Of a stretch of DNA of 64,000 nucleotides, positions 1 through 50,591 are shown in pieces; within the stretch, counting starts at the first letter, position 1, and each line of letters starts with the position of its first letter. The notes beneath the pieces are model-generated. The model had not been told where the DNA came from. It made no database searches and worked only from the letters and a program-made list of their open reading frames with translations. The stretch is from Eledone cirrhosa (taxonomy: Eukaryota): assembly GCA_964016885.1 (NCBI GenBank), contig OZ024753.1, forward strand, positions 27,404,001-27,468,000, given 5' to 3'. Position numbers and translations under genes: made by a program.

Positions 1-114
1 CTCAACCAATTCTAGGGGCTTCCCGTCTACATGAGTGATCCCCTCTGGCTTCTCAACATTCTCTAACAGATATTTTGTTTTATATATTATATTATATATA
101 TATATTATATTATG

Positions 115-181
<67 letters not shown>

Positions 182-222
182 TATATAATATATATAAATA
201 TATATATATATATGTATATAAT

Positions 223-254
<32 letters not shown>

Positions 255-402
255 ATATATATAATATATATATATAATATATATATATAATATATATATA
301 TAATATATATATATATATATAATATATATATATATACAATATATATATATATATAATATATATATAATATATATATATATAATATATATATATATTATAT
401 AT

Positions 403-447
<45 letters not shown>

Positions 448-540
448 TATATATAATATATATATATATATAATATATATATATATATATAATATATGTA
501 TATATATATATTATATATATAATATATATATATATATAAT

Positions 541-593
<53 letters not shown>

Positions 594-629
594 TATATAT
601 ATATAATATATATATATATATATTTTTTT

Positions 630-1185
630 TCTATTCTAAGGCGGGTAAAATCTCCGAGATCCATGGACGTGTTCTCTCCAGCGGTCTCTGTCCCTCATTA
701 TCGCTGCCATATCCTGCGTCTCCAATAGACCAGTGTCTGTCCTTAGGGCATCAACATACGTTAACCTTGGTCTTCCTCTTTTAGAGTGTCCATGTAGGGG
801 CTCCCAAAGGAGCACTGAGTGCAATGTCAACTCTGGATGTCGGTGAGCATGTCCAGCCAACCTCATACAGCAGCATTCTCGTGCAGCACCCATCCACCAT
901 CTGAGAGAGTTTCTTGGTCAGTGTCCAAGTCTCAGAACCATACAGCAGCACAGACTCCACTACAACAATGAAGAGGCGGATTTTCAAGTCTCTACGAAGG
1001 TCCGACTTCCACAGCGATCTCAAGCTGTGGCACGCCGCCCAGGCCTTGCTCTTCCTCTCAACCACATCATCTTCCGTATTCCCAATCTTTGCTCCCAAAT
1101 ACAGGAAGTCCTCAACCAATTCTAGGGGCTTCCCGTCTACATGAGTGATCCCCTCTGGCTTCTCAACATTCTCTACCAGATATTT
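630..1185 (-). pseudogene. RTE-clade non-LTR retrotransposon RT C-terminal fragment with an internal deletion
   Basis: Peptides VEDFLYLG, ESVLLYGSETWTLTK, RLAGHAHRHPE, LLWEP..RGRPRLTYVD..DTG..MRDRDRWR. The segment seen intact at 3780-3900 is missing here. Confidence 0.8.
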
Positions 1186-1226
1186 TGTTTTATATATTAT
1201 ATTATATATATATATATTATATTATG

Positions 1227-1306
<80 letters not shown>

Positions 1307-1358
1307 ATATATATATATATAATATATATAAATATATATATATATATGTATATAATAT

Positions 1359-1390
<32 letters not shown>

Positions 1391-1494
1391 ATATATATAA
1401 TATATATATATATATAATATATATATATAATATATATATATAATATATATATATATATATAATATATATATATATACAATATATATATATATAT

Positions 1495-1527
<33 letters not shown>

Positions 1528-1550
1528 ATATATATATATATTATATATAT

Positions 1551-1595
<45 letters not shown>

Positions 1596-1607
1596 TATAT
1601 ATAATAT

Positions 1608-1639
<32 letters not shown>

Positions 1640-1684
1640 ATATATGTATATATATATATAATATATATAATATATATATATAAT

Positions 1685-1729
<45 letters not shown>

Positions 1730-1763
1730 TATATATATAATATATATATATATATTTTTTTTT

Positions 1764-2320
1764 TCTATTCTAAGGCGGGTAAAATCTCCGAGATCCATGG
1801 ACGTGTTCTCTCCAGCGGTCTCTGTCCCTCATTATCGCTGCCATGTCCTGCGTCTCCAATAGACCAGTGTCTGTCCTTAGGGCATCAACATACGTTAACC
1901 TTGGTCTTCCTCTTTTAGTGTGTCCATGTAGGGGCTCCCAAAGGAGCACTGAGTGCAATGTCAACTCTGGATGTCGGTGAGCATGTCCAGGCAACCTCAT
2001 AGAGCAGCATTCTCGTGCAGCACCCATCCACCATCTGAGAGAGTTTCTTGGTCAGTGTCCAAGTCTCAGAACCATACAGCAGCACAGACTCCACTACAAC
2101 AATGAAGAGGCGGATTTTCAAGTCTCTACGAAGGTCCGACTTCCACAGCGATCTCAAGCTGTGGCACGCCGCCCAGGCCTTGCTCTTCCTCTCAACCACA
2201 TCATCTTCCGTATTCCCAATCTTTGCTCCCAAATACAGGAAGTCCTCAACCAATTCTAGGGGCTTCCCGTCTACATGAGTGATCCCCTCTGGCTTCTCAA
2301 CATTCTCTACCAGATATTTT
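1764..2320 (-). pseudogene. RTE-clade LINE 3' fragment, copy 2
   Basis: Near-identical to 630-1185. Confidence 0.8.
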
Positions 2321-2360
2321 GTTTTATATATTATATTATATATATATATATTATATTATG

Positions 2361-2420
<60 letters not shown>

Positions 2421-2486
2421 CATATATATATATATAATATATATATATAATATATATAAATATATATATATATATGTATATAATAT

Positions 2487-2518
<32 letters not shown>

Positions 2519-2622
2519 ATATATATAATATATATATATATATAATATATATATATAATATATATATATAATATATATATATATATATAATATATATATA
2601 TATACAATATATATATATATAT

Positions 2623-2655
<33 letters not shown>

Positions 2656-2678
2656 ATATATATATATATTATATATAT

Positions 2679-2721
<43 letters not shown>

Positions 2722-2812
2722 TATATATCATATATATATATATAATATATACATATATATATATAATATATGTATATATATATTATATATATAATATATA
2801 TATATATATAAT

Positions 2813-2859
<47 letters not shown>

Positions 2860-2894
2860 TATATATATAATATATATATATATATATTTTTTTT

Positions 2895-3452
2895 TCTATT
2901 CTAAGGCGGGTAAAATCTCCGAGATCCATGGACGTGTTCTCTCCAGCGGTCTCTGTCCCTCATTATCGCTGCCATGTTCTGCGTCTCCAATAGACCAGTG
3001 TCTGTCCTTAGGGCATCAATATACGTTAACCTTGGTCTTCCTCTTTTAGTGTGTCCATGTAGGGGACTCCCAAAGGAGCACTGAGTGCAATGTCAACTCT
3101 GGATGTCGGTGAGCATGTCCAGCCAACCTCATACAGCAGCATTCTCGTGCAGCACCCATCCACCATCTGAGAGAGTTTTTTGGTCAGTGTCCAAGTCTCA
3201 GAACCATACAGCAGCACAGACTCCACTACAACAATGAAGAGGCGGATTTTCAAGTCTCTACGAAGGTCCGACTTCCACAGCGATCTCAAGCTGTGGCACG
3301 CCGCCCAGGCCTTGCCCTTCCTCTCAACCACATCATCTTCCGTATTCCCTATCTTTGCTCCCAAATACAGGAAGCCCTCAACCAATTCTAGCGGCTTCCC
3401 GCCTACTTTAGTGATCCTCTGGCTTTTCAACATTCTCTACCAGATATTTTGT
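2895..3452 (-). pseudogene. RTE-clade LINE 3' fragment, copy 3 (more diverged)
   Basis: ORF 3026-3433 carries the same motifs. Confidence 0.8.
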
Positions 3453-3617
3453 TTTATATATTATATTATATATATATATATATACAGTAATAATAATAAA
3501 TAAGCAGCGATACTTTGCTTAAACTTTAATCTGTTATTTTAATAAATATATATATATATATATAATATATATATATATAATATATATATAATATAATATA
3601 TATATATCTCTCTCTCT

Positions 3618-4043
<426 letters not shown>

Positions 4044-11477: not shown

Positions 11478-11480
<3 letters not shown>

Positions 11481-11830
11481 TAAAAATTACCGAGAATCGA
11501 ATTTCAGCCTATGAAATAACGAAAAAACACTTTCGAATTGTGAGGCAAGCGCTCAATAATTCAAAAGAATTAGAGCTTACAACTTACGTTAAAGGCCAAA
11601 CACACTGAGATGGTGGTTAAACTAATTATCCACACAGCGAAGATTCGATCTCCTATTTCGGGTCAAACAGATATACAGATATAAAAATATATGAAAGCAT
11701 AAATGTTTTATACTCACCGGACCCCTGGAATGATGGTAAAGTCCAGTGTTGGGGTTTCTGCGGCTCCGTAAGTCATTTACTGTCCACTTACATAAAGGAT
11801 GTTAAGTTTCTCGTATCCTGACTGAACCAC
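11478..11830 (-). mobile_element. Diverged 3' fragment of the 616-bp HHR repeat family
   Basis: The reverse complement shares CAGAAACCC..GGGTCCGG, ATCTGTTTGwCCCGAA, TTTAACG..AGCTCT..TGAATTATTGAGC and TCGATwCTCG with the unit at 44341. Confidence 0.7.
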
Positions 11831-11834
11831 AAAG

Positions 11835-11836
11835 AG

Positions 11837-12505: not shown

Positions 12506-12955
12506 TATATATATATATATAATATATAATATATATATATATAATATATATATATATATAATATATATATATAATATATAGGAACCAGTAAGACCCCGAC
12601 AGCTGAGCTCAAGCCGTTTCGACGGCTAATTCTGGACTAAATGAAAATTTATCCTGGTATTTAAATAGCCGATCTTCTCAAGGGGTAATTCCATATATGG
12701 TCAAAGTGATTGTCAAAAATCAGTAGTAATTCTGTGGTTGCAAATTAGTAGGGGAGATGGTGGCTAAACCTGCCAGTAGGAGAAAGAGGGGAGGGGGTGG
12801 AGTAGACCCAATCAAGCGTTGGTAGTGCCAGCTACAGCTGGGCATGAGGTCAAAGAAGATACAGGGGAGGGGGAGGGGGAGGAAATCGGAACGGTAGGTA
12901 GAACAATGGGGGGTAGAAGTATCTAGGAAAGAAAAAATACTGAGAGAGAAGCAAT

Positions 12956-14395
12956 ATGGAGGATAAACGAGAAACTAAATTCATACAGTTCGACATAGAG
13001 AGCTACTATGCTTCAATCACCTTACCGCTACTTACTGCCGCCTTGGACTTCGCCGAAACACTCGTGCCCATCACCGACCAGGAAAGAAAAATCATCCTCC
13101 ACGCCAGGAAGACAGTCTTACTCTTTGACGACTCTAAATGGATAAAAAGAGCTCCCGACTCACCCTTCGACGTCAGCATGGGCGCCACGGATTCGGCGGA
13201 GGTCACTGATCTTATAGGATTATTCCTAATAGCCAAACTCACTGATATGTTTCCTGCATTCGGTGGTGGATTGTACCGTGATGATGGGCTCCTTACCCTT
13301 AAAGGGTACAACCCCAGTAGTACAGATCGGGTCCGGAAACAATTAATCAGATTCTTCCGCGACTGGGGATTTAAAATAACCCTACAAACGTCCCTGACCC
13401 GAGTAAACTTCCTGGACGTGACCCTCGACCTCGAAAACGACCTGTACTACCCATACAGGAAACCTAATGACAATCTGCACTACATCCACCGCCGATCAAA
13501 CCATCCTAGGAACATCACAAACAACCTGGTCAAAAACAACTCCCTCCGCATATCCCGTTTGTCAGCTAATGAGCGGATATTCGATGAACATGCGCCTTAT
13601 TACAACCAGGCCCTCAAGCGGAGCGGTTTCCGGGAGGTAATATCCTACTGTCCAGCTCCCATTAGCGGAACCAGCAGGAGACACCGCCGCTCACGCAATG
13701 TAACATGGTTCAATCCTCCCCACAACGCAGAGGTGACTACTCCCATCGGGAAACTATTCTTTAGGCTCATTGAAAAACACTTCCCATTACAACACCACTA
13801 CCACAACATAATTAACAAAAATACCATCAAACTCTCTTACAGCACTACACCAAACTTCGCACAAAACATCGTCTCCTCTAACAACAAAAAACTCAACCCC
13901 GATGGCAGAAATAACCTAAATAGCAGTGGAGAACCGACCAGGAGGTGTAACTGCCCGGATAGATCTATTTGCCCACTCGACAATAGATGCAGAGACCGTA
14001 ATGTGATCTACCAGTGCAACGTGAGGACGGATACCTCCAACAAAGCCTATATAGGACTTACCGCATGTGACTTCAAGACCCGGCTATACCAACATAGACA
14101 TACCTTCCGAAACCCGGCCCGGCGTCACGCCACTACACTTTCGGGCCACATATGGGACCTCAAGGACAACAACATCACCTATGATCTCACTTGGAGATTA
14201 CTGTCCAGAGCCAATTCTTACACGGGAGGACGCCATCCGTGCAATTTATGCTCGGAGGAAACTTTACAAATGCTGTTTTCGACGGACCAACTCCTAAACA
14301 AGAAAGATGAACTGGTTACTGCATGTAAACATAGATTGCGTAGGACTTACCTCGCCCTCAAACCCCATAATGACCCGGGGGGAGGGGTAGACTAG
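12956..14395 (+). CDS. 5'-truncated RT plus GIY-YIG endonuclease, uninterrupted (479 aa)
   Basis: FIQFDIESYYASI, MGATDSAEVTDLIG, GLYRDD, VNFLDVTL, SNHP, WFNPP, CNCPDRSICPL, VIY..YIG, CNLC, CKH. Confidence 0.9.
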   Translation: MEDKRETKFIQFDIESYYASITLPLLTAALDFAETLVPITDQERKIILHARKTVLLFDDSKWIKRAPDSPFDVSMGATDSAEVTDLIGLFLIAKLTDMFPAFGGGLYRDDGLLTLKGYNPSSTDRVRKQLIRFFRDWGFKITLQTSLTRVNFLDVTLDLENDLYYPYRKPNDNLHYIHRRSNHPRNITNNLVKNNSLRISRLSANERIFDEHAPYYNQALKRSGFREVISYCPAPISGTSRRHRRSRNVTWFNPPHNAEVTTPIGKLFFRLIEKHFPLQHHYHNIINKNTIKLSYSTTPNFAQNIVSSNNKKLNPDGRNNLNSSGEPTRRCNCPDRSICPLDNRCRDRNVIYQCNVRTDTSNKAYIGLTACDFKTRLYQHRHTFRNPARRHATTLSGHIWDLKDNNITYDLTWRLLSRANSYTGGRHPCNLCSEETLQMLFSTDQLLNKKDELVTACKHRLRRTYLALKPHNDPGGGVD

Positions 14396-15501
14396 GGCTA
14401 TAACACCCCACTTGCCGATTTTGCAATGGGTAACCCTGCTTGCCAAGGAAGACGTAAGATCTTCTTTGTATTCTTTTATCGCTTCCTTTATTTCATTCCC
14501 CCCCTCTCTCCTTTGTCCTTCTACCCCAGCTCTTCTCCTTTGTCGGCTTCTTTTCTCGCCCACCCGAGGCTGCCCTTTAGCCCCATGTAGCCTTAGTACC
14601 CCCACCACCCCCTCCCCTAGTCTATGATAGATTTGGCGGACTCCGCCCTTTATAGCAGTTGGCTTAGACCCCGGATACTTGCCCCCTCTTTCCGACCGCT
14701 CCCACTATTCTCTGTGCCCTCTATATTTCTTAGTGGCACTTATGCCTTATTTTTTCGTTTCAGTATTTCTTGCTTCGCTTTTCTTCTGGGCGGGGTGGAT
14801 TCTGAATTTATTTCTCCGTATTCTACCTTTATTTCGTACGAACTTTCTTGTAGCTTGTTTTAGATCTTTTAGAGTTAGCATTAGTATATATTTTTCTCGG
14901 GACTCAGAATTATTATCTCGTACAAGTTCACTTTGCTGCACTGGGTCGTTGCTGGCCCGGGACGGAAACCTTTATTGTTTATTTCGTGGTAGTCTCTTTA
15001 GTATTTTGGCCCCTTTTGTTGACCCGTCACCGTATCATTTACGTACTTATACCTCTTAAAAGGGTCCTTGCCTATCCGTCCCACCTAGTTCTTTTACTTA
15101 TTTCGTTATTTATTTATTTATTTATTTCTTTACTTCTTTCTTTCTTTCTTTATTTTATTCTAGCCTAACAATAGCCTGACACCTTGGTCGTAGAATTTAA
15201 TTTACTTTACTTTTTTCTTTACACTTATTTGCTCCTCTTCTCTCTCAGTATTTTTTCTTTCCTAGATACTTCTACCCCCCTTTGTTCTACCTACCGTTCC
15301 GGTTTCCTCCCCCTCCCCCTCCCCTGTATCTTCTTTGACCTCATGCCCAGCTGTAGCTGGCACTACCAACGCTTGATTGGGTCTACTCCACCCCCTCCCC
15401 TCTTTCTCCTACTGGCAGGTTTAGCCACCATCTCCCCTACTAATTTGCAACCACAGAATTACTACTGATTTTTGACAATCACTTTGACCATATATGGAAT
15501 T

Positions 15502-15595
15502 ACCCCTTGAGAAGATCGGCTATTTAAATACCAGGATAAATTTTCATTTAGTCCAGAATTAGCCGTCGAAACGGCTTCAGCTCAGCTGTCGGGGT
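15502..15595 (+). ncRNA. Type I HHR with compensatory U3-A8 core
   Basis: ACCCC-TTGAGAA-GA(T)CGGCTA..TAGCCGTC-GAAA-CGGC ttcagctca GCTG-TC-GGGGT. An inverted copy lies at about 12593-12686. Confidence 0.75.
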
Positions 15596-15697
15596 CTTAC
15601 TGGTTCCTATTACCCACTCTACTACCTCAAGTATTGAGTACTTTGGTGCGTTATGGTCCACCTGGTTCCTTACCACTTTTCCTTCGTTATATAATAT

Positions 15698-16092: not shown

Positions 16093-16767
16093 ATAAACGG
16101 AAAAAATGAAACGAAATTTCATTTCCCACTCTTAGTACGGCTGTTACTTAAATATAAGTATGTACACGTACATACATATATGTATACAGACGTACAGTAG
16201 TATGTATATATATATGTACGTATGGATTCACCGAACATTTATTATAATGCTCAGTGTGTTTGTAAACAAACATCCCGTATTAAGCCGTAGTGTCCAGCAA
16301 CCATCGTTGCTCGTTTGTTGAACACTGACAAAGTAACGCTGTACTAGTTTCAAGCTTATTAGCTATCGTCAGCAACGTATACCTTCCTGCCAGATTGTTT
16401 AACGTATATACTTACCTTATGCATATTAACAGCTGAGAAGCCCAATTTGCATATCGAGTGGGTTTACCGGCCGGGTGCACCGAAAACGATAAACGGAAAA
16501 AATGAAACGAAATTTCATTTCCCACTCTTAGTACGGCTGTTACTTAAATATAAGTATGTACACGTACATACATATATGTATACAGACGTACAGTAGTATG
16601 TATATATATATGTACGTATGGATTCACCGAACATTTATTATAATGCTCAGTGTGTTTGTAAACAAACATCCCGTATTAAGCCGTAGTGTCCAGCAACCAT
16701 CGTTGCTCGTTTGTTGAACACTGACAAAGGAACGCTGTACTAGTTTCAAGCTTATTAGCTATCGTCA
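16093..16767 (-). mobile_element. ORF-less HHR tandem repeat, 396-bp unit x1.7
   Basis: ATAAACGGAAAAAATGAAACG at 16093 and 16489. It is a diverged relative of 7451-7968. Confidence 0.8.
16336..16378 (-). ncRNA. Minimal type I HHR
   Basis: ACGTTG-CTGACGA-T-AGCT aata AGCT-T-GAAA-CTAG-TA-CAGCGT. Helix I covaries with the 7807 copy. Confidence 0.85.
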
Positions 16768-36089: not shown

Positions 36090-38411
36090 TTATGTAATAT
36101 TCGGCTTGTAGTGGGAAAAAAGGGTTTTAGTTCTGTGACGGCAGAATAATTTTCGTTCAATTCTATTATTCAGCAGTTTCTTCTTGTGTGTGATTATGTA
36201 ATAAATCTCAAGATTACACAATTTGCAGAAATTTTGGCTCCTGGAAAAGCTTTGGGTTTTAGCTAATTTCTCCCATTTTAGGGTAAACTTTTGATCGCTA
36301 TCCCTGAGCGTCCAAGCTTTTTCTGCTAAAGTTGTTACATTTCTTTGGCTCTGGTGTTTTATTGAGTAAGAATGCCTATACAATCGAGATTTAAACGATG
36401 TTACCGTTGATCCCACGTAATACCACTCGTTGCCTCCGGATTTAATGGTACACTTATAAATAATATTTTTTTCCAGGCAGTTATTGCCGAGGGGGCAGTT
36501 GTCAGGATAGGTGCAGTTACAGTTGTGTACGTTGGGTTTTCTCTGGAGTAGTATTGCGGACGAACTTAGGTGTGGTTTATTTATGTTCTGTAGTGTATTG
36601 TCTACTGTTTTTTTTGTGTTCTTTGTACTTAAGTTCTTAGTGTTTTCGTTTAACCTTCTAGTATTGATCTTTTTTATGTGTTGTTCAAGGTTTAACGCTG
36701 TAGAGTATGACAGTCTTATAGTGGTAGGGTTTAGGATTTTGTGGTATTTGTGTGATGTGGGAAAATGTCTTTTAATTATTTTAAAGAAGAGTACTGGTAA
36801 ATTTGTACTAATGGAACTATTGTATTCGGGGTTATACCATAAGTACTCTTTGCATCGCTTTCTATTAGTTTTGTTTGTTGGTTTACTGGTGTGCATACTA
36901 TGGTAGTAAGTGTGGTTTGGTGTTGTGTTATTATATCTACCTATGTGGGATTTATTTTGGGTGTTTTGATTGTTCCCATCTATGTACTCTATTTTGTTGA
37001 CGTAGCCTGCTTTACTAAGGGCGTTATCGTAGTACTCGGCGTGTTCCTTAAATACTTGTATGTTAGAAGATAGACCCGAGATTCTAAGGGAAATATTTTT
37101 AGGGATAGATTTAATTATAGAGATGGGGTGGTTAGACCCAACATTTACGTATTTGAGATTTTCATTCAATTTATGAAACGGTTTAATCAAACCAGAGTTT
37201 AAATTGAGTGTGATATCCAGGAAGTTAACTACTTTAAGGTTGTATTCATATGTTATAGTTAGTCCTATTTCGAGTAGTAGTTTTCTTATATCTTTGCGTA
37301 GTTTTTCTAGTTTTTGGTTATTAAGGTTTTTAGCTAGGAGGAGAACATCGTCGCGGTATATTCCGCCGTGGAGATTGCTGAATTTTTCCTGGAGTCTAAA
37401 GGCGATAAATAACCCCACAATATCAGTTATTTCCGCCGAATCATTAAAGCCCATTGTTATGTCAAAGTTAGAGGGTCTATCTTTACGTACCCAATAACTG
37501 TTCTCAAATTTGACTATAGTTTTCCTAGCTTCTAATATAATCTTAATTTCATCGTTTGTAAGGTCAGAGTTATCCTTAGCAAACTTAATGGCTCTATTCA
37601 AAGTTTCAGGTGATATCGATGAGTAATATTCATCGATATCAAACTGGATAAACTTAGATTTATTCTTATTGCTAATGCTATTAAACCATCTTATTGCTTC
37701 TTGGGTCTTCCCCCAGAGTTTAATGTTAACCTTAGCCTTAATTTGGGGGATGATTCTATCTAAGATATATTTGCTTATTTTACCTATATCTGATTTAGAG
37801 GGGCAGATTAATCTAATTTTAGGGTCATTATCAAAGTTTACCTTGTGGTCCTTAAGATTGAAGGTGGGTACCGTCGGTAAGAGTGGTCCTGTCCTATCTT
37901 CGATTCCGAGATTTTTCACTATTTCGCATGCCTCATCATTGATGTGCTTAAGGGTTACTTCACTCGTTTTTCTATATTTTTTATGTAATTCTTTTCGAAT
38001 GAAGTTGTTGTATGTAGTGCAATCCATAGTGTACAGGTTTGATGTTTTGTCCGCTTTTACTACAATTCCTTTGGTGTTTTTAAGGTCGTCCAGTAGTTTT
38101 TTTATATCTTTCTGTAATTTGCTGTTGGTGTTGCGTCCTTTGAATTTAATTTTAAGGATTAAGTTCATGAGGTCCTGCTCAAATGCATCTAATAGTGGGT
38201 TGGTGGGTGGGTTTTTACAAGTCCTAAAACCGAATTTGTTGTTTACACCACTTTCTAATGTTGAGTTCATACGGCTTCTATCATAGTGGAGCGTTTTCCA
38301 CCTGACACGTCGAATGAATTCATTAGTTTTTTGAATCATACTCAATAAATATTCCTTTCTACCTTGGGTTGGTATGTTTTTGAGTGACATATCCAGGTAG
38401 TGTTTTTTCAT
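36090..38411 (-). CDS. Intact PLE polyprotein: RT plus zinc-knuckle linker plus GIY-YIG endonuclease (773 aa)
   Basis: MSLKNIP, ADKT, LKDHK, RLICP, FIQFDI, MGFNDSAEITDIVG, GIYRDD, NFLDITL, SNHP, WYNP, CNCTYPDNCPL..CL, IIY..YVG, CKLC, CRH. Confidence 0.93.
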   Translation of the reverse strand: MKKHYLDMSLKNIPTQGRKEYLLSMIQKTNEFIRRVRWKTLHYDRSRMNSTLESGVNNKFGFRTCKNPPTNPLLDAFEQDLMNLILKIKFKGRNTNSKLQKDIKKLLDDLKNTKGIVVKADKTSNLYTMDCTTYNNFIRKELHKKYRKTSEVTLKHINDEACEIVKNLGIEDRTGPLLPTVPTFNLKDHKVNFDNDPKIRLICPSKSDIGKISKYILDRIIPQIKAKVNIKLWGKTQEAIRWFNSISNKNKSKFIQFDIDEYYSSISPETLNRAIKFAKDNSDLTNDEIKIILEARKTIVKFENSYWVRKDRPSNFDITMGFNDSAEITDIVGLFIAFRLQEKFSNLHGGIYRDDVLLLAKNLNNQKLEKLRKDIRKLLLEIGLTITYEYNLKVVNFLDITLNLNSGLIKPFHKLNENLKYVNVGSNHPISIIKSIPKNISLRISGLSSNIQVFKEHAEYYDNALSKAGYVNKIEYIDGNNQNTQNKSHIGRYNNTTPNHTYYHSMHTSKPTNKTNRKRCKEYLWYNPEYNSSISTNLPVLFFKIIKRHFPTSHKYHKILNPTTIRLSYSTALNLEQHIKKINTRRLNENTKNLSTKNTKKTVDNTLQNINKPHLSSSAILLQRKPNVHNCNCTYPDNCPLGNNCLEKNIIYKCTIKSGGNEWYYVGSTVTSFKSRLYRHSYSIKHQSQRNVTTLAEKAWTLRDSDQKFTLKWEKLAKTQSFSRSQNFCKLCNLEIYYIITHKKKLLNNRIERKLFCRHRTKTLFSHYKPNIT

Positions 38412-38615
38412 TGTTGTGGTTGCGTTTGCTGTGTGGGTTGCTCGACTTTACAGGAGGTAAATATACAGTATTTTCCGTTGTGTTGTAATATAAATATTAC
38501 ACACAGTAGATTATCAGCTCACGTAGAGTTTGCTCGACGGTTCCAGTTGTAGTTCCAAAAGTAATCCGGAGAAAAATAGAAAGATTTGAATGGATACAGT
38601 TTAGTTGAAAGGAAT

Positions 38616-38735
38616 TTATTGACACGTGTTTCTATAACAGTTACATAACCTAAAACAGCTGCTATCTACAAACTTTTAGTTATGCAGACATTCAATATTT
38701 CAATGTTATTATTTACTGTCATTTCATCAGAATAA
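38616..38735 (-). ncRNA. Type I HHR with extended stem II (copies at 34466-34585 and 32777-32897)
   Basis: TTATT-CTGATGA-A-ATGACAG..CTGTTAT-A-GAAA-CACGTG-TC-AATAA. Confidence 0.8.
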
Positions 38736-39314
38736 TATTACTGAGGACCTATTTAGTTTTTATAGAGAATATTAGGAGGGAGGGGTGAAGTTGTTAGAAG
38801 AATAGTTGAAGGAGTGGTTTTTCGATAGCAGTGAGAATTCTTGGTGGCAGTGAGTAATTAGATTCCCATCTGTTGTTTTGACATTTTTTATAGAATATAT
38901 TATTGGTTATTTTTCTAAATCTATAGAAGGATTAGAGATAGTAAAGATATGCGTGGTTGGTTTTGTGTTTGCACTTAATTAACATTCAGACTTAAATTTT
39001 TCTTTCAAGTGTACGTATCCTTTCACCCACGCATTCACACACAAATATATTTGCACACCTCTACAAAATACATATACTCACAATTTACATATTCATACTT
39101 ACATATATATACACATGCATACACATATATATACACACATGTATTCATGTACATACAATGTGTATACATTTTCATACTCAACTTATCTTTATATACACAC
39201 GTATAGACACACACATATATACATACTTACTCTAGGCCATGTGTACACACATACACATACATACACATCTATATACACATATATACATACATATACATAT
39301 ATATATACATATAC

Positions 39315-42444: not shown

Positions 42445-42741
42445 ATATATATATATGTATGTGTGTGTTTGTGTATGTGTATATATATGTATATTTGTGT
42501 ATATGTGGATAAACCAGGTTTTTTTCATTTTTTTCTTTCTGAAGATTGAAGGAAACATTTTTTGCTTTTAAGAAACCTCTGGTGAATGGAATAATTGCCT
42601 TATGTTGCTTTATTACTTTACTACTATATATACGTTTATGTAAGGTTCATTTGTCTTTTCTAATACTGAGTTTTACACATACACACATGTATATGTGTGT
42701 GTGTATGTGTATGCATATGTGTATATGTACGTATATGTGTA

Positions 42742-42806
<65 letters not shown>

Positions 42807-42867
42807 ATGTATGTATGTATATATGTGTGTGTGTATTTATTATTTGTTTATGTATGTGTGTGTGTGG

Positions 42868-42907
<40 letters not shown>

Positions 42908-43041
42908 GTATTTGTATTTGGTTGTGCGTGTTTTTGATATATACGTATTTGCATGTGTATAATTGTTTAGCTATGTATGTATATGTGTGTTTACGTATAT
43001 GTGTGTGTGTGTGTGTGTGCGTTTATATTTTTATATTTTAG

Positions 43042-43133
<92 letters not shown>

Positions 43134-44050
43134 ATATAATTACATATACATGTGTGTGTGTTTATATTGTATACGTGTGCGTGTTTGTGTATGTATGTGT
43201 ATGTATGTGTTTTTGTATTTGTTTATGTATATTTATGTATGAGAGTGTGTGTATGTGTTTACTATTTCGTACGTATGTATACGTGCTTTTGTGTGTATTA
43301 CTTACCACGCGTGTCTGTCCTGTTAGCTGGGTCATATATCGGTGTCAAAAATTTTTAATATATTTATCTATTTTTTTTTCTGATACTTATTTGCGTGTGT
43401 GAATATGTAGAGGAGTGCATTCATGTATGTGTATGTATGTACGTTTTGTATGGTTGTGTGAATGTATGTATGTGTGCATATATATGTGTGTGTGTATGGC
43501 TATGTTTGTGTATGTGTATGCTTGTACACACACATGTGTATGTGTGTGTATGTGTATGTGTGTATATGTATATATATATGTATATATATATATATATATA
43601 TATGTACATATATATATGTGTGTGTGTATGCGTGTGTGTGTGTGTGTGTGTGTATGTGTGTGTGTGCGTGTGTGTATATGTATTAATGTATGTATGTGTA
43701 TATGTGTGTATATATGTGTATGTGTATGTAAGTGTACGTTTTATATATATGTGTATATGTATATATGTATGCGTACATATATATATGTATATATGTATGT
43801 GTGTGTAAGTATGCTTTTGGATTTTTTTGTGTGTGTGTTTGCATGCGTAGTTTTATTTTATTTTATTTTTCCTTTCCTTCTTCCTTCTCCAACTTCACAT
43901 TCATATAGATTGCATTTTTGTTTTTGTAATCCAAATTCAATAAACAAACCAGGATTTTTTCGTTCTGACAATTGAAAGCAAAACCTTTTGCTTTTAAGAA
44001 ACCACTGGTAAATGGAATAATTGCCTTATGTTGTTTATTACATAATAATA
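42445..44050 (+). mobile_element. Microsatellite-rich ORF-less repeat bounded by two HHRs about 1.43 kb apart
   Basis: HHR block at about 42533-42593 (degenerate) and 43958-44017. The 3' part is duplicated at 46717-47680. Confidence 0.7.
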
Positions 44051-44213
<163 letters not shown>

Positions 44214-44340
44214 ACATGTATATATAATATAATATATATATATAATATATATATATAATATATATATAATATATATATATATATAATATATATATATATA
44301 TAATATATAATATATATATATAATATATATATATAATATA

Positions 44341-46455
44341 CCTTTCTAGTGGGTCCGGGTATGATTTTACATTCATTTAAATTATTGATGTATTGTTTTA
44401 TTGATATTTTTTATCTGTTTGTCCCGAATCTTCCTTTATCGATTTTTTATCGTATGGTTGATTGTAGACTTGTTCTATATGTGACGGTATTTTAACGATA
44501 GTTATAGCTCTGATTCATCTGAATTATTGAGCCCTCTGCCGCTCAGTTCGAATTTTGTTTATCGTGAACTCGTGCGCCGATTTTTCGATACTCGATCTTT
44601 CTAATATTTTTAGCTCTGGAGATAGCTATCCACCAGTTAATTTTATTGCTCATTTTTTGTCGATTCTATTGAGTGATGAATAGCTTTTGTTTTATTTTAA
44701 CATGTCTATTGAGCACTCTTATTCGATATGTGTATTTCCACATTCCCTCGAATTGTTTTCGCGGATATAGGGGTTATCTCCCTTGTCTAATGCCATGTGC
44801 GTTTTTCACTGGTAATTAGCCCCTTTTCCGCTAGGAAAAAAGCTCGTTGAGAAAGTAAACTCCGTTCCGCTTACTCTAGTAGGCTTTTATATTTATATGT
44901 GAGCTGATAGAGTACAGTCTAAGGATTTACAGAAACCCATGAAGCTAGATTTAACACCTTTCTAGTGGGTCCGGGTATGATTTTACATTCATTTAAATTA
45001 TTGATGTATTGTTTTATTGATATTTTTTATCTGTTTGTCCCGAATCTTCCTTTATCGATTTTTTATCGTATGGTTGATTGTAGACTTGTTCTATATGTGA
45101 CGGTATTTTAACGATAGTTATAGCTCTGATTCATCTGAATTATTGAGCCCTCTGCCGCTCATTTCGAATTTTGTTTATCGTGAACTCGTGCGCCGATTTT
45201 TCGATACTCGATCTTTCTAATATTTTTAGCTCTGGACATAGCTATCCACCAGTTAATTTTATTGCTCATTTTTTGTCGATTCTATTGAGTGATGAATAGC
45301 TTTTGTTTTATTTTAACATGTCTATTGAGCACTCTTATTCGATATGTGTATTTCCACATTCCCTCGAATTGTTTTCGCGGATATAGGGGTTATCTCCCTT
45401 GTCTAATGCCATGTGCGTTTTTCACTGGTAGTTAGCCCCTTTTCCGCTAGGAAAAAAGCTCGTTGAGAAAGTAAACTCCGTTCCGCTTACTCTAGTAGGC
45501 TTTTATATTTATATGTGAGCTGATAGAGTACAGTCTAAGGATTTACAGAAACCCATGAAGCTAGATTTAACACCTTTCTAGTGGGTCCGGGTATGATTTT
45601 ACATTCATTTAAATTATTGATGTATTGTTTTATTGATATTTTTTATCTGTTTGTCCCGAATCTTCCTTTATCGATTTTTTATCGTATGGTTGATTGTAGA
45701 CTTGTTCTATATGTGACGGTATTTTAACGATAGTTATAGCTCTGATTCATCTGAATTATTGAGCCCTCTGCCGCTCATTTCGAATTTTGTTTATCGTGAA
45801 CTCGTGCGCCGATTTTTCGATACTCGATCTTTCTAATATTTTTAGCTCTGGACATAGCTATCCACCAGTTAATTTTATTGCTCATTTTTTGTCGATTCTA
45901 TTTAGTGATGAATAGCTTTTGTTTTATTTTAACATGTCTATTGAGCACTCTTATTCGATATGTGTATTTCCACATTCCCTCGAATTGTTTTCGCGGATAT
46001 AGGGGTTATCTCCCTTGTCTAATGCCATGTGCGTTTTTCACTGGTAGTTAGCCCCTTTTCCGCTAGGAAAAAAGCTCGTTGAGAACGTAAACTCCGTTCC
46101 GCTTACTCTAGTAGGCTTTTATATTTATATGTGAGCTGATAGAGTACAGTCTAAGGATTTACAGAAACCCATGAAGCTAGATTTAACACCTTTCTAGTGG
46201 GTCCGGGTATGATTTTACATTCATTTAAATTATTGATGTATTGTTTTATTGATATTTTTTATCTGTTTGTCCCGAATCTTCCTTTATCGATTTTTTATCG
46301 TATGGTTGATTGTAGACTTGTTCTATATGTGACGGTATTTTAACGATAGTTATAGCTCTGATTCATCTGAATTATTGAGCCCTCTGCCGCTCATTTCGAA
46401 TTTTGTTTATCGTGAACTCGTGCGCCGATTTTTCGATACTCGATCTTTCTAATAT
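44341..46455 (+). repeat. 616-bp tandem array x3.4, each unit carrying an extended HHR; retrozyme-like
   Basis: CCTTTCTAGTGGGTCCGGG at 44341, 44957, 45573 and 46189. There are only a few substitutions between units, and (TA)n lies on both sides. Confidence 0.95.
44842..44976 (+). ncRNA. Type I HHR, U3-A8 core, extended stems II and III (copies at 45458-45592 and 46074-46208)
   Basis: GCTCG-TTGAGAA-A-GTAAA(C)TCC..GGATTTAC-A-GAAA-CCCA..CTAGA..TCTAG-TGGG-TC-CGGGT. Confidence 0.7.
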
Positions 46456-46545
46456 ATATATATATATATATAATAAATATATATATAATATATAATATAT
46501 ATATATATAATATATATATATAATATATATATATATATATAATAT

Positions 46546-47680
<1,135 letters not shown>

Positions 47681-47833
47681 TTAAGCTCAGTTGCCTACAT
47701 AGAGAACTCTTTTTTCCTGGACTTTTCCGATGGAATTACTTCATTTACACATATATTATATATATATATATATTATATATATATATTATATATATATATT
47801 ATATATATATATATTATATATTATATATATATT

Positions 47834-48696: not shown

Positions 48697-50591
<1,895 letters not shown>

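What the first reader, a model, noticed from the sequence alone, without database searches (positions are those of the whole stretch)
44341..46455. 616-bp ribozyme concatemer inserted in (TA)n: candidate new retrozyme family with an unusual extended hammerhead
Seen: 3.4 nearly identical ORF-less units, with (TA)n on both sides. Each complete unit folds by hand into a type I HHR with core UUGAGAA (U3-A8 replacing C3-G8). It has an A-A apposition at 10.1/11.1, a stem II region of about 75 nt, a long stem III (ACCCA/UGGGU plus CUAGA/UCUAG) and a GUC cleavage site. Known: non-LTR retrozymes are tandem HHR repeats that yield monomeric or circular RNAs and are thought to be mobilised by PLE RTs; described units are usually shorter and have minimal HHRs. 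Inference: this array came from reverse transcription of a circular or concatemeric 616-nt RNA by a (TA)n-targeting PLE. A standard CUGANGA search would miss it.
Basis: partly seen in the sequence, partly recalled or inferred. Interest (0 to 1): 0.85.

Follow-up and report, generated by a model that had tools for sequence, protein, structure and literature searches.

The report
Hammerhead repeat spread by rolling retrotransposition
A 616-base non-coding tandem repeat carrying a predicted self-cleaving hammerhead ribozyme sits at hundreds of TA-microsatellite sites with one fixed end and ragged other ends, the pattern expected if a Penelope-type reverse transcriptase likely copied round and round a circular RNA, which makes it a new variant of the known animal retrozymes and a good test case for how they move.

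Summary
Confirmed. The 3.43-unit, 616-bp array is real (1494 of 1499 bases match one period on) and belongs to a dispersed mobile family: at least 739 exact 3' junctions in this genome. All 40 arrays examined end at unit position 265-267, running into (AT)n, about 250 nt past the predicted cleavage site; 5' ends are random, two are inverted. Units differ 0.35% within arrays and 2.0% between; a young subfamily has arrays of 16-19 units with no differences. The type I hammerhead fold covaries across 18 diverged relatives; about 4,000 motifs share it (control 31). Best reading: a non-LTR retrozyme, likely copied from a circular RNA by internally initiating, target-primed reverse transcription, probably by a Hydra-clade Penelope-like element (a young one with an open 785-aa frame lies in the window). 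U3-A8, the mismatch at the base of stem II and 600-nt units are each in print; their combination with a 78-nt stem II, long stem III and a predicted downstream off-switch was not found. No cleavage or RNA was shown, and stem I is not favoured in full-length folds. The scan earlier noted a similar ribozyme-less element in another genome.

The parts
44341..46455 (+). Whole insertion: 3.43 head-to-tail units of 616 bp, 5'-truncated at unit position 1, fixed 3' end at unit position 265-267
44842..44976 (+). Type I hammerhead, copy 1: stem I 44842-46/44972-76; U3 44847, N7 44851, A8 44852, A9 44853; A44854.A44931 mismatch (or extra bases) before G44855-C44930; GAA 44932-34; predicted cut after C44971
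45458..45592 (+). Hammerhead copy 2, predicted cut after 45587
46074..46208 (+). Hammerhead copy 3 (C.A at the base of stem II), predicted cut after 46203
44972..45587 (+). Predicted cut-to-cut 616-nt monomer, the candidate circular RNA; folds better than shuffles (z -5.3, 0 of 20)
45037..45042 (+). GUCCCG, predicted competitor for the 3' strand of stem I (repeated in each unit); an NNCCCG lies at the like place in 18 of 19 relatives
46436..46455 (+). Fixed 3' terminus, inferred internal start of reverse transcription, with 3-5 nt of AT microhomology to the target
44051..44340 (.). (TA)n target, 5' side
46452..46717 (.). (TA)n target, 3' side
11479..11835 (-). 5'-truncated copy of a sister family (623-nt unit) with the 3' part of the same hammerhead, ending in (TA)n
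36090..38447 (-). Candidate helper: Penelope-like element with an open 785-aa RT/GIY-YIG-type frame and Hydra-clade motifs (RWK, DKT, CxCx5C); young, 40 of 40 scored copies 99-100% identical
38612..38738 (-). Hammerhead-like motif in the pseudo-LTR of that element: C3-G8, about 90-nt stem II with A.A at its base, short palindromic stem III

Best explanation
The array is one insertion of a non-autonomous, hammerhead-bearing retroelement (a non-LTR retrozyme) that is dispersed over the genome with a fixed 3' end in (TA)n and variable 5' ends, and it likely arose when a Penelope-like reverse transcriptase copied several times round a predicted 616-nt circular RNA. Shown: tandem non-coding units, hundreds of loci, fixed 3' end, 5' truncation and inversion, array-wide haplotypes, covarying hammerhead fold. 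Inferred steps: (1) a multi-unit copy is transcribed; (2) the hammerhead cleaves during transcription after GUC, before the downstream competitor is made; (3) a host ligase closes the monomer, in which stem I is predicted to be switched off; (4) the GIY-YIG endonuclease of a PLE, most likely Hydra-clade, nicks (TA)n, and the RT starts at an internal site 250 nt past the ligation junction, helped by 3-5 nt of AU microhomology; (5) it runs round the circle until it falls off, giving anything from 48 bp to 18.7 units.
For: Fixed 3' end in 40 of 40 best-scoring arrays, 38 of 40 followed by (AT)n at 10 or more of 12 bases; 5' ends spread over unit positions 1-585. At least 739 exact 3' junctions and 1615 read-through junctions, reversed controls 0. 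The end is not the cut site, so a cleaved linear monomer cannot be the template; a PLE RT starts internally in vitro (PMC11167929). In L053 the inverted 5' arm also ends at position 267, facing outwards, the PLE pattern (PMC8557442). Within-array difference 0.35% against 2.0% between arrays; 5 array-private changes are fixed in all units among 19 arrays with three or more units; no excess of variants shared by rank between arrays. Youngest subfamily: 15 of 15 and 18 of 18 identical units in two arrays of 10.0 and 11.5 kb, and one array with its own base in 14 of 15 units. Hammerhead: 90.1% of cells paired over 14 pairs in 18 diverged copies, 0 of 500 shuffles, slid controls 20-50%; N7 takes all four bases; both U3-A8 and C3-G8 occur in the clade (L151, L152). 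Mismatch at the base of stem II in 15 of 26 listed Hydra-PLE hammerhead rows, and (TA)n targeting by that clade (PMC8557442 File S1-S2). Tandem junction also in contigs of 7 of 8 public runs laid.
Against: No cleavage assay and no RNA. Stem I has pairing probability 0.73 in the isolated motif but 0.01 with 120 nt of upstream sequence and 0.01 in the circle; only 10 of 19 relatives reach 0.38 even when isolated. In the 2026 preprint 8 of 9 predicted retrozymes did not cleave; in the PLE assay the hammerhead needed protein and was not needed for insertion, the uncut RNA being the main template. Some arrays show repeated internal patterns (L029, period 3 at three sites; the L113 array, one variant in 5 of 12 units), which a single monomer circle does not give. 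Identical units say little where the whole subfamily is identical between loci (0-1 differences). No sequence homology to the candidate helper beyond a 9-nt match at the two fixed ends (E 5.7); a model of the hammerhead does not find the helper's motif (E 4.6). The covariation set was picked by a core pattern and is related by descent.
Confidence: 0.68

Rival explanations
1. Same PLE-driven insertion, but the template is the uncut linear multi-unit transcript of a source array; the hammerhead is weak, protein-dependent or idle, and no circle is needed.
For: Uncut RNA is the main substrate of a PLE RT in vitro (PMC11167929); stem I is disfavoured in long contexts; periodic variants in L029 and L113.
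Against: Daughters could never be longer than their source and would inherit its unit-to-unit differences by rank; no such excess is seen, and array-private changes are fixed in all units. The hammerhead is kept with covariation across subfamilies whose units are about two-thirds identical.
Confidence: 0.2
2. Short (1.x-unit) copies insert by retrotransposition and then grow in place into minisatellites by unequal crossing-over, as proposed for pLTR-derived retrozymes.
For: Proposed in bioRxiv 10.64898/2026.07.22.740005; periodic variants in two arrays fit block duplication.
Against: The longest arrays (13-19 units) belong to the youngest subfamily, with 0-1 differences between loci, while older, more diverged arrays hold 1.4-6.5 units; growth in place predicts the reverse. 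Lengths run continuously from 48 bp up.
Confidence: 0.08
3. The helper is a LINE (such as the RTE-like remnants in the window) or the array is an assembly artefact.
For: LINEs also give 5' truncation and inversion (own knowledge); RTE-like fragments lie at 781-3436 (family label recalled). Two of five long identical arrays abut N gaps, so their unit counts may be wrong.
Against: LINE priming uses the RNA 3' end, whereas here the fixed end is read through 1615 times; an inverted arm starts at the same fixed site; the units of this array differ at 5 sites and the junction stands in other samples.
Confidence: 0.04

Closest known systems
Animal non-LTR retrozymes (Cervera and de la Pena 2020, PMC7229834; Li, Clavereau and Pollet 2026, bioRxiv 10.64898/2026.07.22.740005)
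   Same: Non-coding tandem repeats, one type I hammerhead per unit, GC below 50% (35.6%), no LTR arrangement, co-occurring with PLEs; 616 bp lies inside the 51-972 bp range of the preprint.
   Different: Longer than the 170-400 nt circles shown experimentally; hammerhead with U3-A8, basal mismatch, 78-nt stem II and long stem III; stem I predicted blocked in the circle, whereas most animal retrozyme circles are said to fold freely into the active form; fixed internal 3' end and (TA)n targeting were not described in the parts read; no joined PLE ORF seen.
Hammerheads of Hydra-clade Penelope-like elements (Craig et al. 2021, PMC8557442)
   Same: (TA)n targets, fixed 3' end, inverted 5' copies, mismatch at the base of stem II (15 of 26 rows of File S2).
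   Different: Those are autonomous, have C3-G8, stems II of 3-7 bp with loops up to 10 nt and tiny stems III; this element has no ORF.
U3-A8 minimal hammerheads of Schistosoma Cercyon PLEs (Cervera and de la Pena 2014, PMC4209133)
   Same: U3-A8 covariation, unpaired base after A9, enlarged helix II.
   Different: Those lack helix III, act as dimers and mostly stand singly.
Poseidon PLE of Anolis, PAc (Frangieh et al. 2024, PMC11167929)
   Same: Internal RT start downstream of the hammerhead, AT-rich target, both strands extended.
   Different: Autonomous; its start site is not homologous to the target, whereas here 3-5 nt of AT microhomology are present.

Membership tests
Non-LTR retrozyme | Head-to-tail tandem units, two or more with a complete type I hammerhead | tested here: met
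   Three complete motifs at 616-nt spacing
Non-LTR retrozyme | No protein-coding frame, low GC | tested here: met
   Longest ATG frame 47 codons; GC 35.6%
Non-LTR retrozyme | Dispersed, mobile copies | tested here: met
   40 arrays on many contigs; at least 739 3' junctions
Non-LTR retrozyme | Self-cleavage of the hammerhead | not testable with these tools
   Covariation supports the fold; equilibrium folding in context does not favour stem I
Non-LTR retrozyme | Accumulation of unit-length linear and circular RNA | tested here: inconclusive
   No run on record as RNA could be laid
Non-LTR retrozyme | Homology to the pseudo-LTR of an autonomous PLE (24 of 57 Xenopus families in the preprint) | tested here: inconclusive
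   No homology to the PLEs of the window; the genome's PLEs were not all compared
Type I hammerhead ribozyme | Three stems round YUGANRA, GAA and UH with stem I open | tested here: met
   U3-A8 is a known active covariation (PMC3088659)
Type I hammerhead ribozyme | Standard pair directly after A9 and before G12 | tested here: not met
   A.A or C.A there, followed by an invariant G-C; pattern with the A before G12: 4005 hits, without: 37 (control 48). Mismatches at this place are listed for Hydra PLEs
Type I hammerhead ribozyme | Tertiary contact between loops 1 and 2 | not tested
   No call addressed it
PLE-mobilised element | Fixed internal 3' end, 5' truncation, inverted 5' copies, (TA)n bias | tested here: met
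Autonomous PLE | RT and GIY-YIG frame between pseudo-LTRs | tested here: not met
   Units follow units; 5' flanks shown for 40 + 5 + 14 copies are TA runs, unrelated DNA or gaps
Plant LTR retrozyme | Type III hammerheads in two LTRs round a unique centre | tested here: not met
   Type I motif in tandem units

The most novel reading that the evidence does not exclude
A currently active clade of viroid-like 580-625-nt RNA circles that parasitise Hydra-clade PLEs, with a new long-armed U3-A8 hammerhead under a built-in kinetic off-switch, whose genomic arrays (up to 11.5 kb of identical units from one fixed internal start) are a direct record of rolling-circle target-primed reverse transcription, and which may pass between species.
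Probability: 0.35. Interest if true: 0.75.

Novelty: new variant of a known kind. Interest (0 to 1): 0.55.

Why it matters
How animal retrozymes reach new loci, and whether tandem copies come from a circular template or from growth in place, is stated as open in the 2020 paper and the 2026 preprint. This family gives sharp predictions: the RT start site to within 3 nt, the target, a young helper candidate with an open frame and a subfamily young enough to be active. An in vitro assay of the published PLE type could test circle-templated insertion directly, and an RT that copies 11 kb round a circle into a defined microsatellite would interest genome engineers. It also shows about 4,000 hammerheads in one genome that Rfam misses.

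Tried and rejected
Rfam: no hammerhead family matched. RNA evidence: no RNA holder listed; the one run guessed as RNA (X14) gave one 144-nt piece at depth 2.2 and short AT-rich pieces, no junction; not counted either way. Target-site duplication: the flanking duplication 43024-44340/46629-47985 is 90.6% identical overall (93.6% in its non-repetitive part), far older than the array, so it is not a TSD; short TSDs cannot be read in (TA)n. An alternative core on the CUGAUAGA inside stem II: rejected, it has no stem I with the cut site (read) and is not kept in relatives. Autonomous parent: none of 20 loci with a C3-G8 core and the same basal A showed a PLE frame running into the motif (3 had unrelated same-strand PLE fragments); 12 loci of one of those families had no PLE hit; Pfam named only a GIY-YIG domain in 1 of 4 window PLE proteins. 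The covariance model found only the three copies and the sister fragment in the window. No earlier finding of this scan matched by sequence or place. Branch-point reading of the downstream NNCCCG: rejected for this family, which lacks the A. Lunse et al. 2017 (PMC5785218) was not held, and the supplement of PMC7229834 could not be read; both may hold similar hammerheads or end structures.

Full report
Observation. The array at 44341-46455 has a period of 616 with 1494 of 1499 matches; the units differ at five sites, three private to unit 1 and two to unit 3. It lies between TA runs and has no frame over 62 codons. Rfam does not see it.

It is a mobile family. A search of the own genome (3.0 Gb) gave 1493 candidates, of which the best 40 were scored. 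I fetched all 40 arrays. All end at unit position 265-267 and 38 of 40 run on into (AT)n; the 5' ends are spread from position 1 to 585, 30 of 40 beside a TA run; two have inverted 5' arms, and in L053 the inverted arm starts at the same fixed end. An exact 28-base pattern for the junction finds 739 places, the read-through form 1615, reversed controls none. Nineteen further loci, picked from the first 100 listed junctions, are 48 bp to over 2.3 kb long; being picked by the junction they do not test the fixed end. The fixed end lies 250 nt past the predicted cut, so the template was read from an internal start. A PLE RT does this in vitro on AT-rich DNA and extends both strands (PMC11167929, parts 1-2 of 4 read).

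Circle or linear multimer. Units differ by 0.35% within arrays and 2.0% between arrays; 12 positions vary within more than one array, about what chance gives by my rough count, so there is no inheritance by rank. Five array-private changes are fixed in every unit among the 19 arrays with three or more units. A 615-nt subfamily, 95% identical to this one, has arrays of 13.5 to 18.7 units; in two, all 15 and all 18 units are identical, and one carries its own base in 14 of 15 units. Four of the five long arrays fetched show the fixed end; the fifth stops near a gap. The longest arrays are thus the youngest, against growth in place. Against a pure monomer circle: L029 repeats with period 3 at three sites and the L113 array shares a variant among 5 of 12 units, which points to multimeric circles or later exchange; and identity within arrays is weak evidence where loci are identical to each other.

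The hammerhead. A pattern for the variant core with a 55-85-nt stem II has 4005 hits against 31 for the control; without the A before G12 it has 37 against 48; with C3-G8 it has 39 against 9, two of the fetched ones from this clade. The hits fall into several subfamilies with units of 581, 615-617 and 623 nt where tandems could be measured; the 623-nt unit aligns to this one with 396 identities, 193 mismatches and 61 gaps, and all end in (TA)n 170-250 nt past the cut where the end could be read. I aligned 18 of 22 extracted motifs, leaving out two near-duplicates, one with a stem III deletion and one truncated copy. Over 14 pairs 90.1% of cells pair (shuffles 85.9, 0 of 500), 6 pairs change on both sides, slid controls give 20-50%; RNAalifold recovers the three stems. 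Core positions were fixed by the pattern and are no evidence; the free position N7 takes all four bases. Each oddity is in print: U3-A8 (PMC4209133, parts 1-2 of 4; PMC3088659, passages), a mismatch at the base of stem II in 15 of 26 Hydra-PLE rows and a C.A in a Chara element (PMC8557442 File S2).

Folding in context. Stem I has probability 0.73 in the isolated motif, 0.08 when 90 nt downstream are added, 0.01 with 120 nt upstream and 0.01 in the circle, where the 3' strand pairs with a downstream CCCG (0.72). An NNCCCG lies 15-65 nt past the cut in 18 of 19 relatives, and all 19 fall to 0.17 or less with the downstream part. I read this as an off-switch that allows cleavage during transcription only; it may equally mean a poor ribozyme that needs protein, as in PAc. 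The monomer as a whole is more structured than shuffles (z -5.3).

The helper. The window holds many PLE frames. The one at 36090-38447 is open for 785 aa, has the RWK, DKT and CxCx5C motifs that define the Hydra clade (PMC8557442 section 11 and passages), sits in partial tandem, ends in (TA)n and has at least 40 copies at 99-100%. Its hammerhead also has a long stem II with A.A at the base. Its fixed end shares nine bases with the fixed end of this family, but the match has E 5.7 and sister subfamilies end differently, so it is a lead only. A second PLE, at 12944-14395, has a U3-A8 hammerhead with a 54-nt stem II. A model of the retrozyme hammerhead scores neither significantly. No autonomous parent was found.

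Elsewhere. Sixteen public runs from 12 studies hold part of the unit. Seven of eight laid show the 616 head-to-tail joint; X1 may be the source of the assembly. Organisms D and G hold a unit close to the youngest subfamily. Their kinship is not given.

Verdict. By the operational definition (tandem, non-coding, type I hammerhead in each unit, dispersed) it is a non-LTR retrozyme (PMC7229834, passages and sections 13, 17; bioRxiv 10.64898/2026.07.22.740005, parts 1-3 of 5, supplements closed); cleavage and circles are untested. It is a new variant of a known kind. The value lies in the clean insertion signature, which turns a proposed life cycle into a defined experiment. Interest 0.55.

Noticed in passing
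window 11479-11835 (-); L063-L076, L181: Sister retrozyme family with a 623-nt unit and 2619 search candidates; same hammerhead plan, two adjacent 3' ends about 4 nt apart.
   Followed up: partly
G000:C1:13090684-13100703 and C1:49829688-49841191 (L107-L112): Arrays of 16.3 and 18.7 units with no difference between units; youngest, possibly active 615-nt subfamily, with longer AT microhomology at the fixed end.
   Followed up: partly
L146, L159-L170: Another non-coding (TA)n-inserted family (2799 candidates) with a C3-G8 hammerhead, long stem II and short stem III; one locus suggests a period near 840 nt.
   Followed up: partly
window 44975-44980 and relatives (A1): A GTR splice-donor-like motif follows the cut by 2-3 nt in 19 of 19 relatives; confounded with stem I pairing, no conserved acceptor seen.
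   Followed up: partly
window 12578-15690: PLE with RT/endonuclease frame 12944-14395, a U3-A8 hammerhead at about 15502-15595 and an inverted copy of its 3' end at 12578-12951; second copy at 48784-50490.
   Followed up: partly
window 42529-44050 and 46718-47750: The array sits in a TA run between two older copies (90.6% identical) of another element end that carries a minimal hammerhead (47590-47636).
   Followed up: no
window 1-3777: Three 1.13-kb tandem copies of a LINE-like RT fragment separated by long TA runs.
   Followed up: no
window 16093-16767: Tandem of about 396 nt (99.6% identical over 279 nt) of a small TA-flanked element that recurs several times in the window.
   Followed up: no
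runs X6 and X9 (organisms D, G): Single low-depth contigs holding the whole unit, about 98-99% like the youngest subfamily here; close kin, transfer or contamination not told apart.
   Followed up: partly
L029 (G000:C4:38632523-38636520): Variants at three sites repeat every third unit: trimeric circle or later block duplication.
   Followed up: partly
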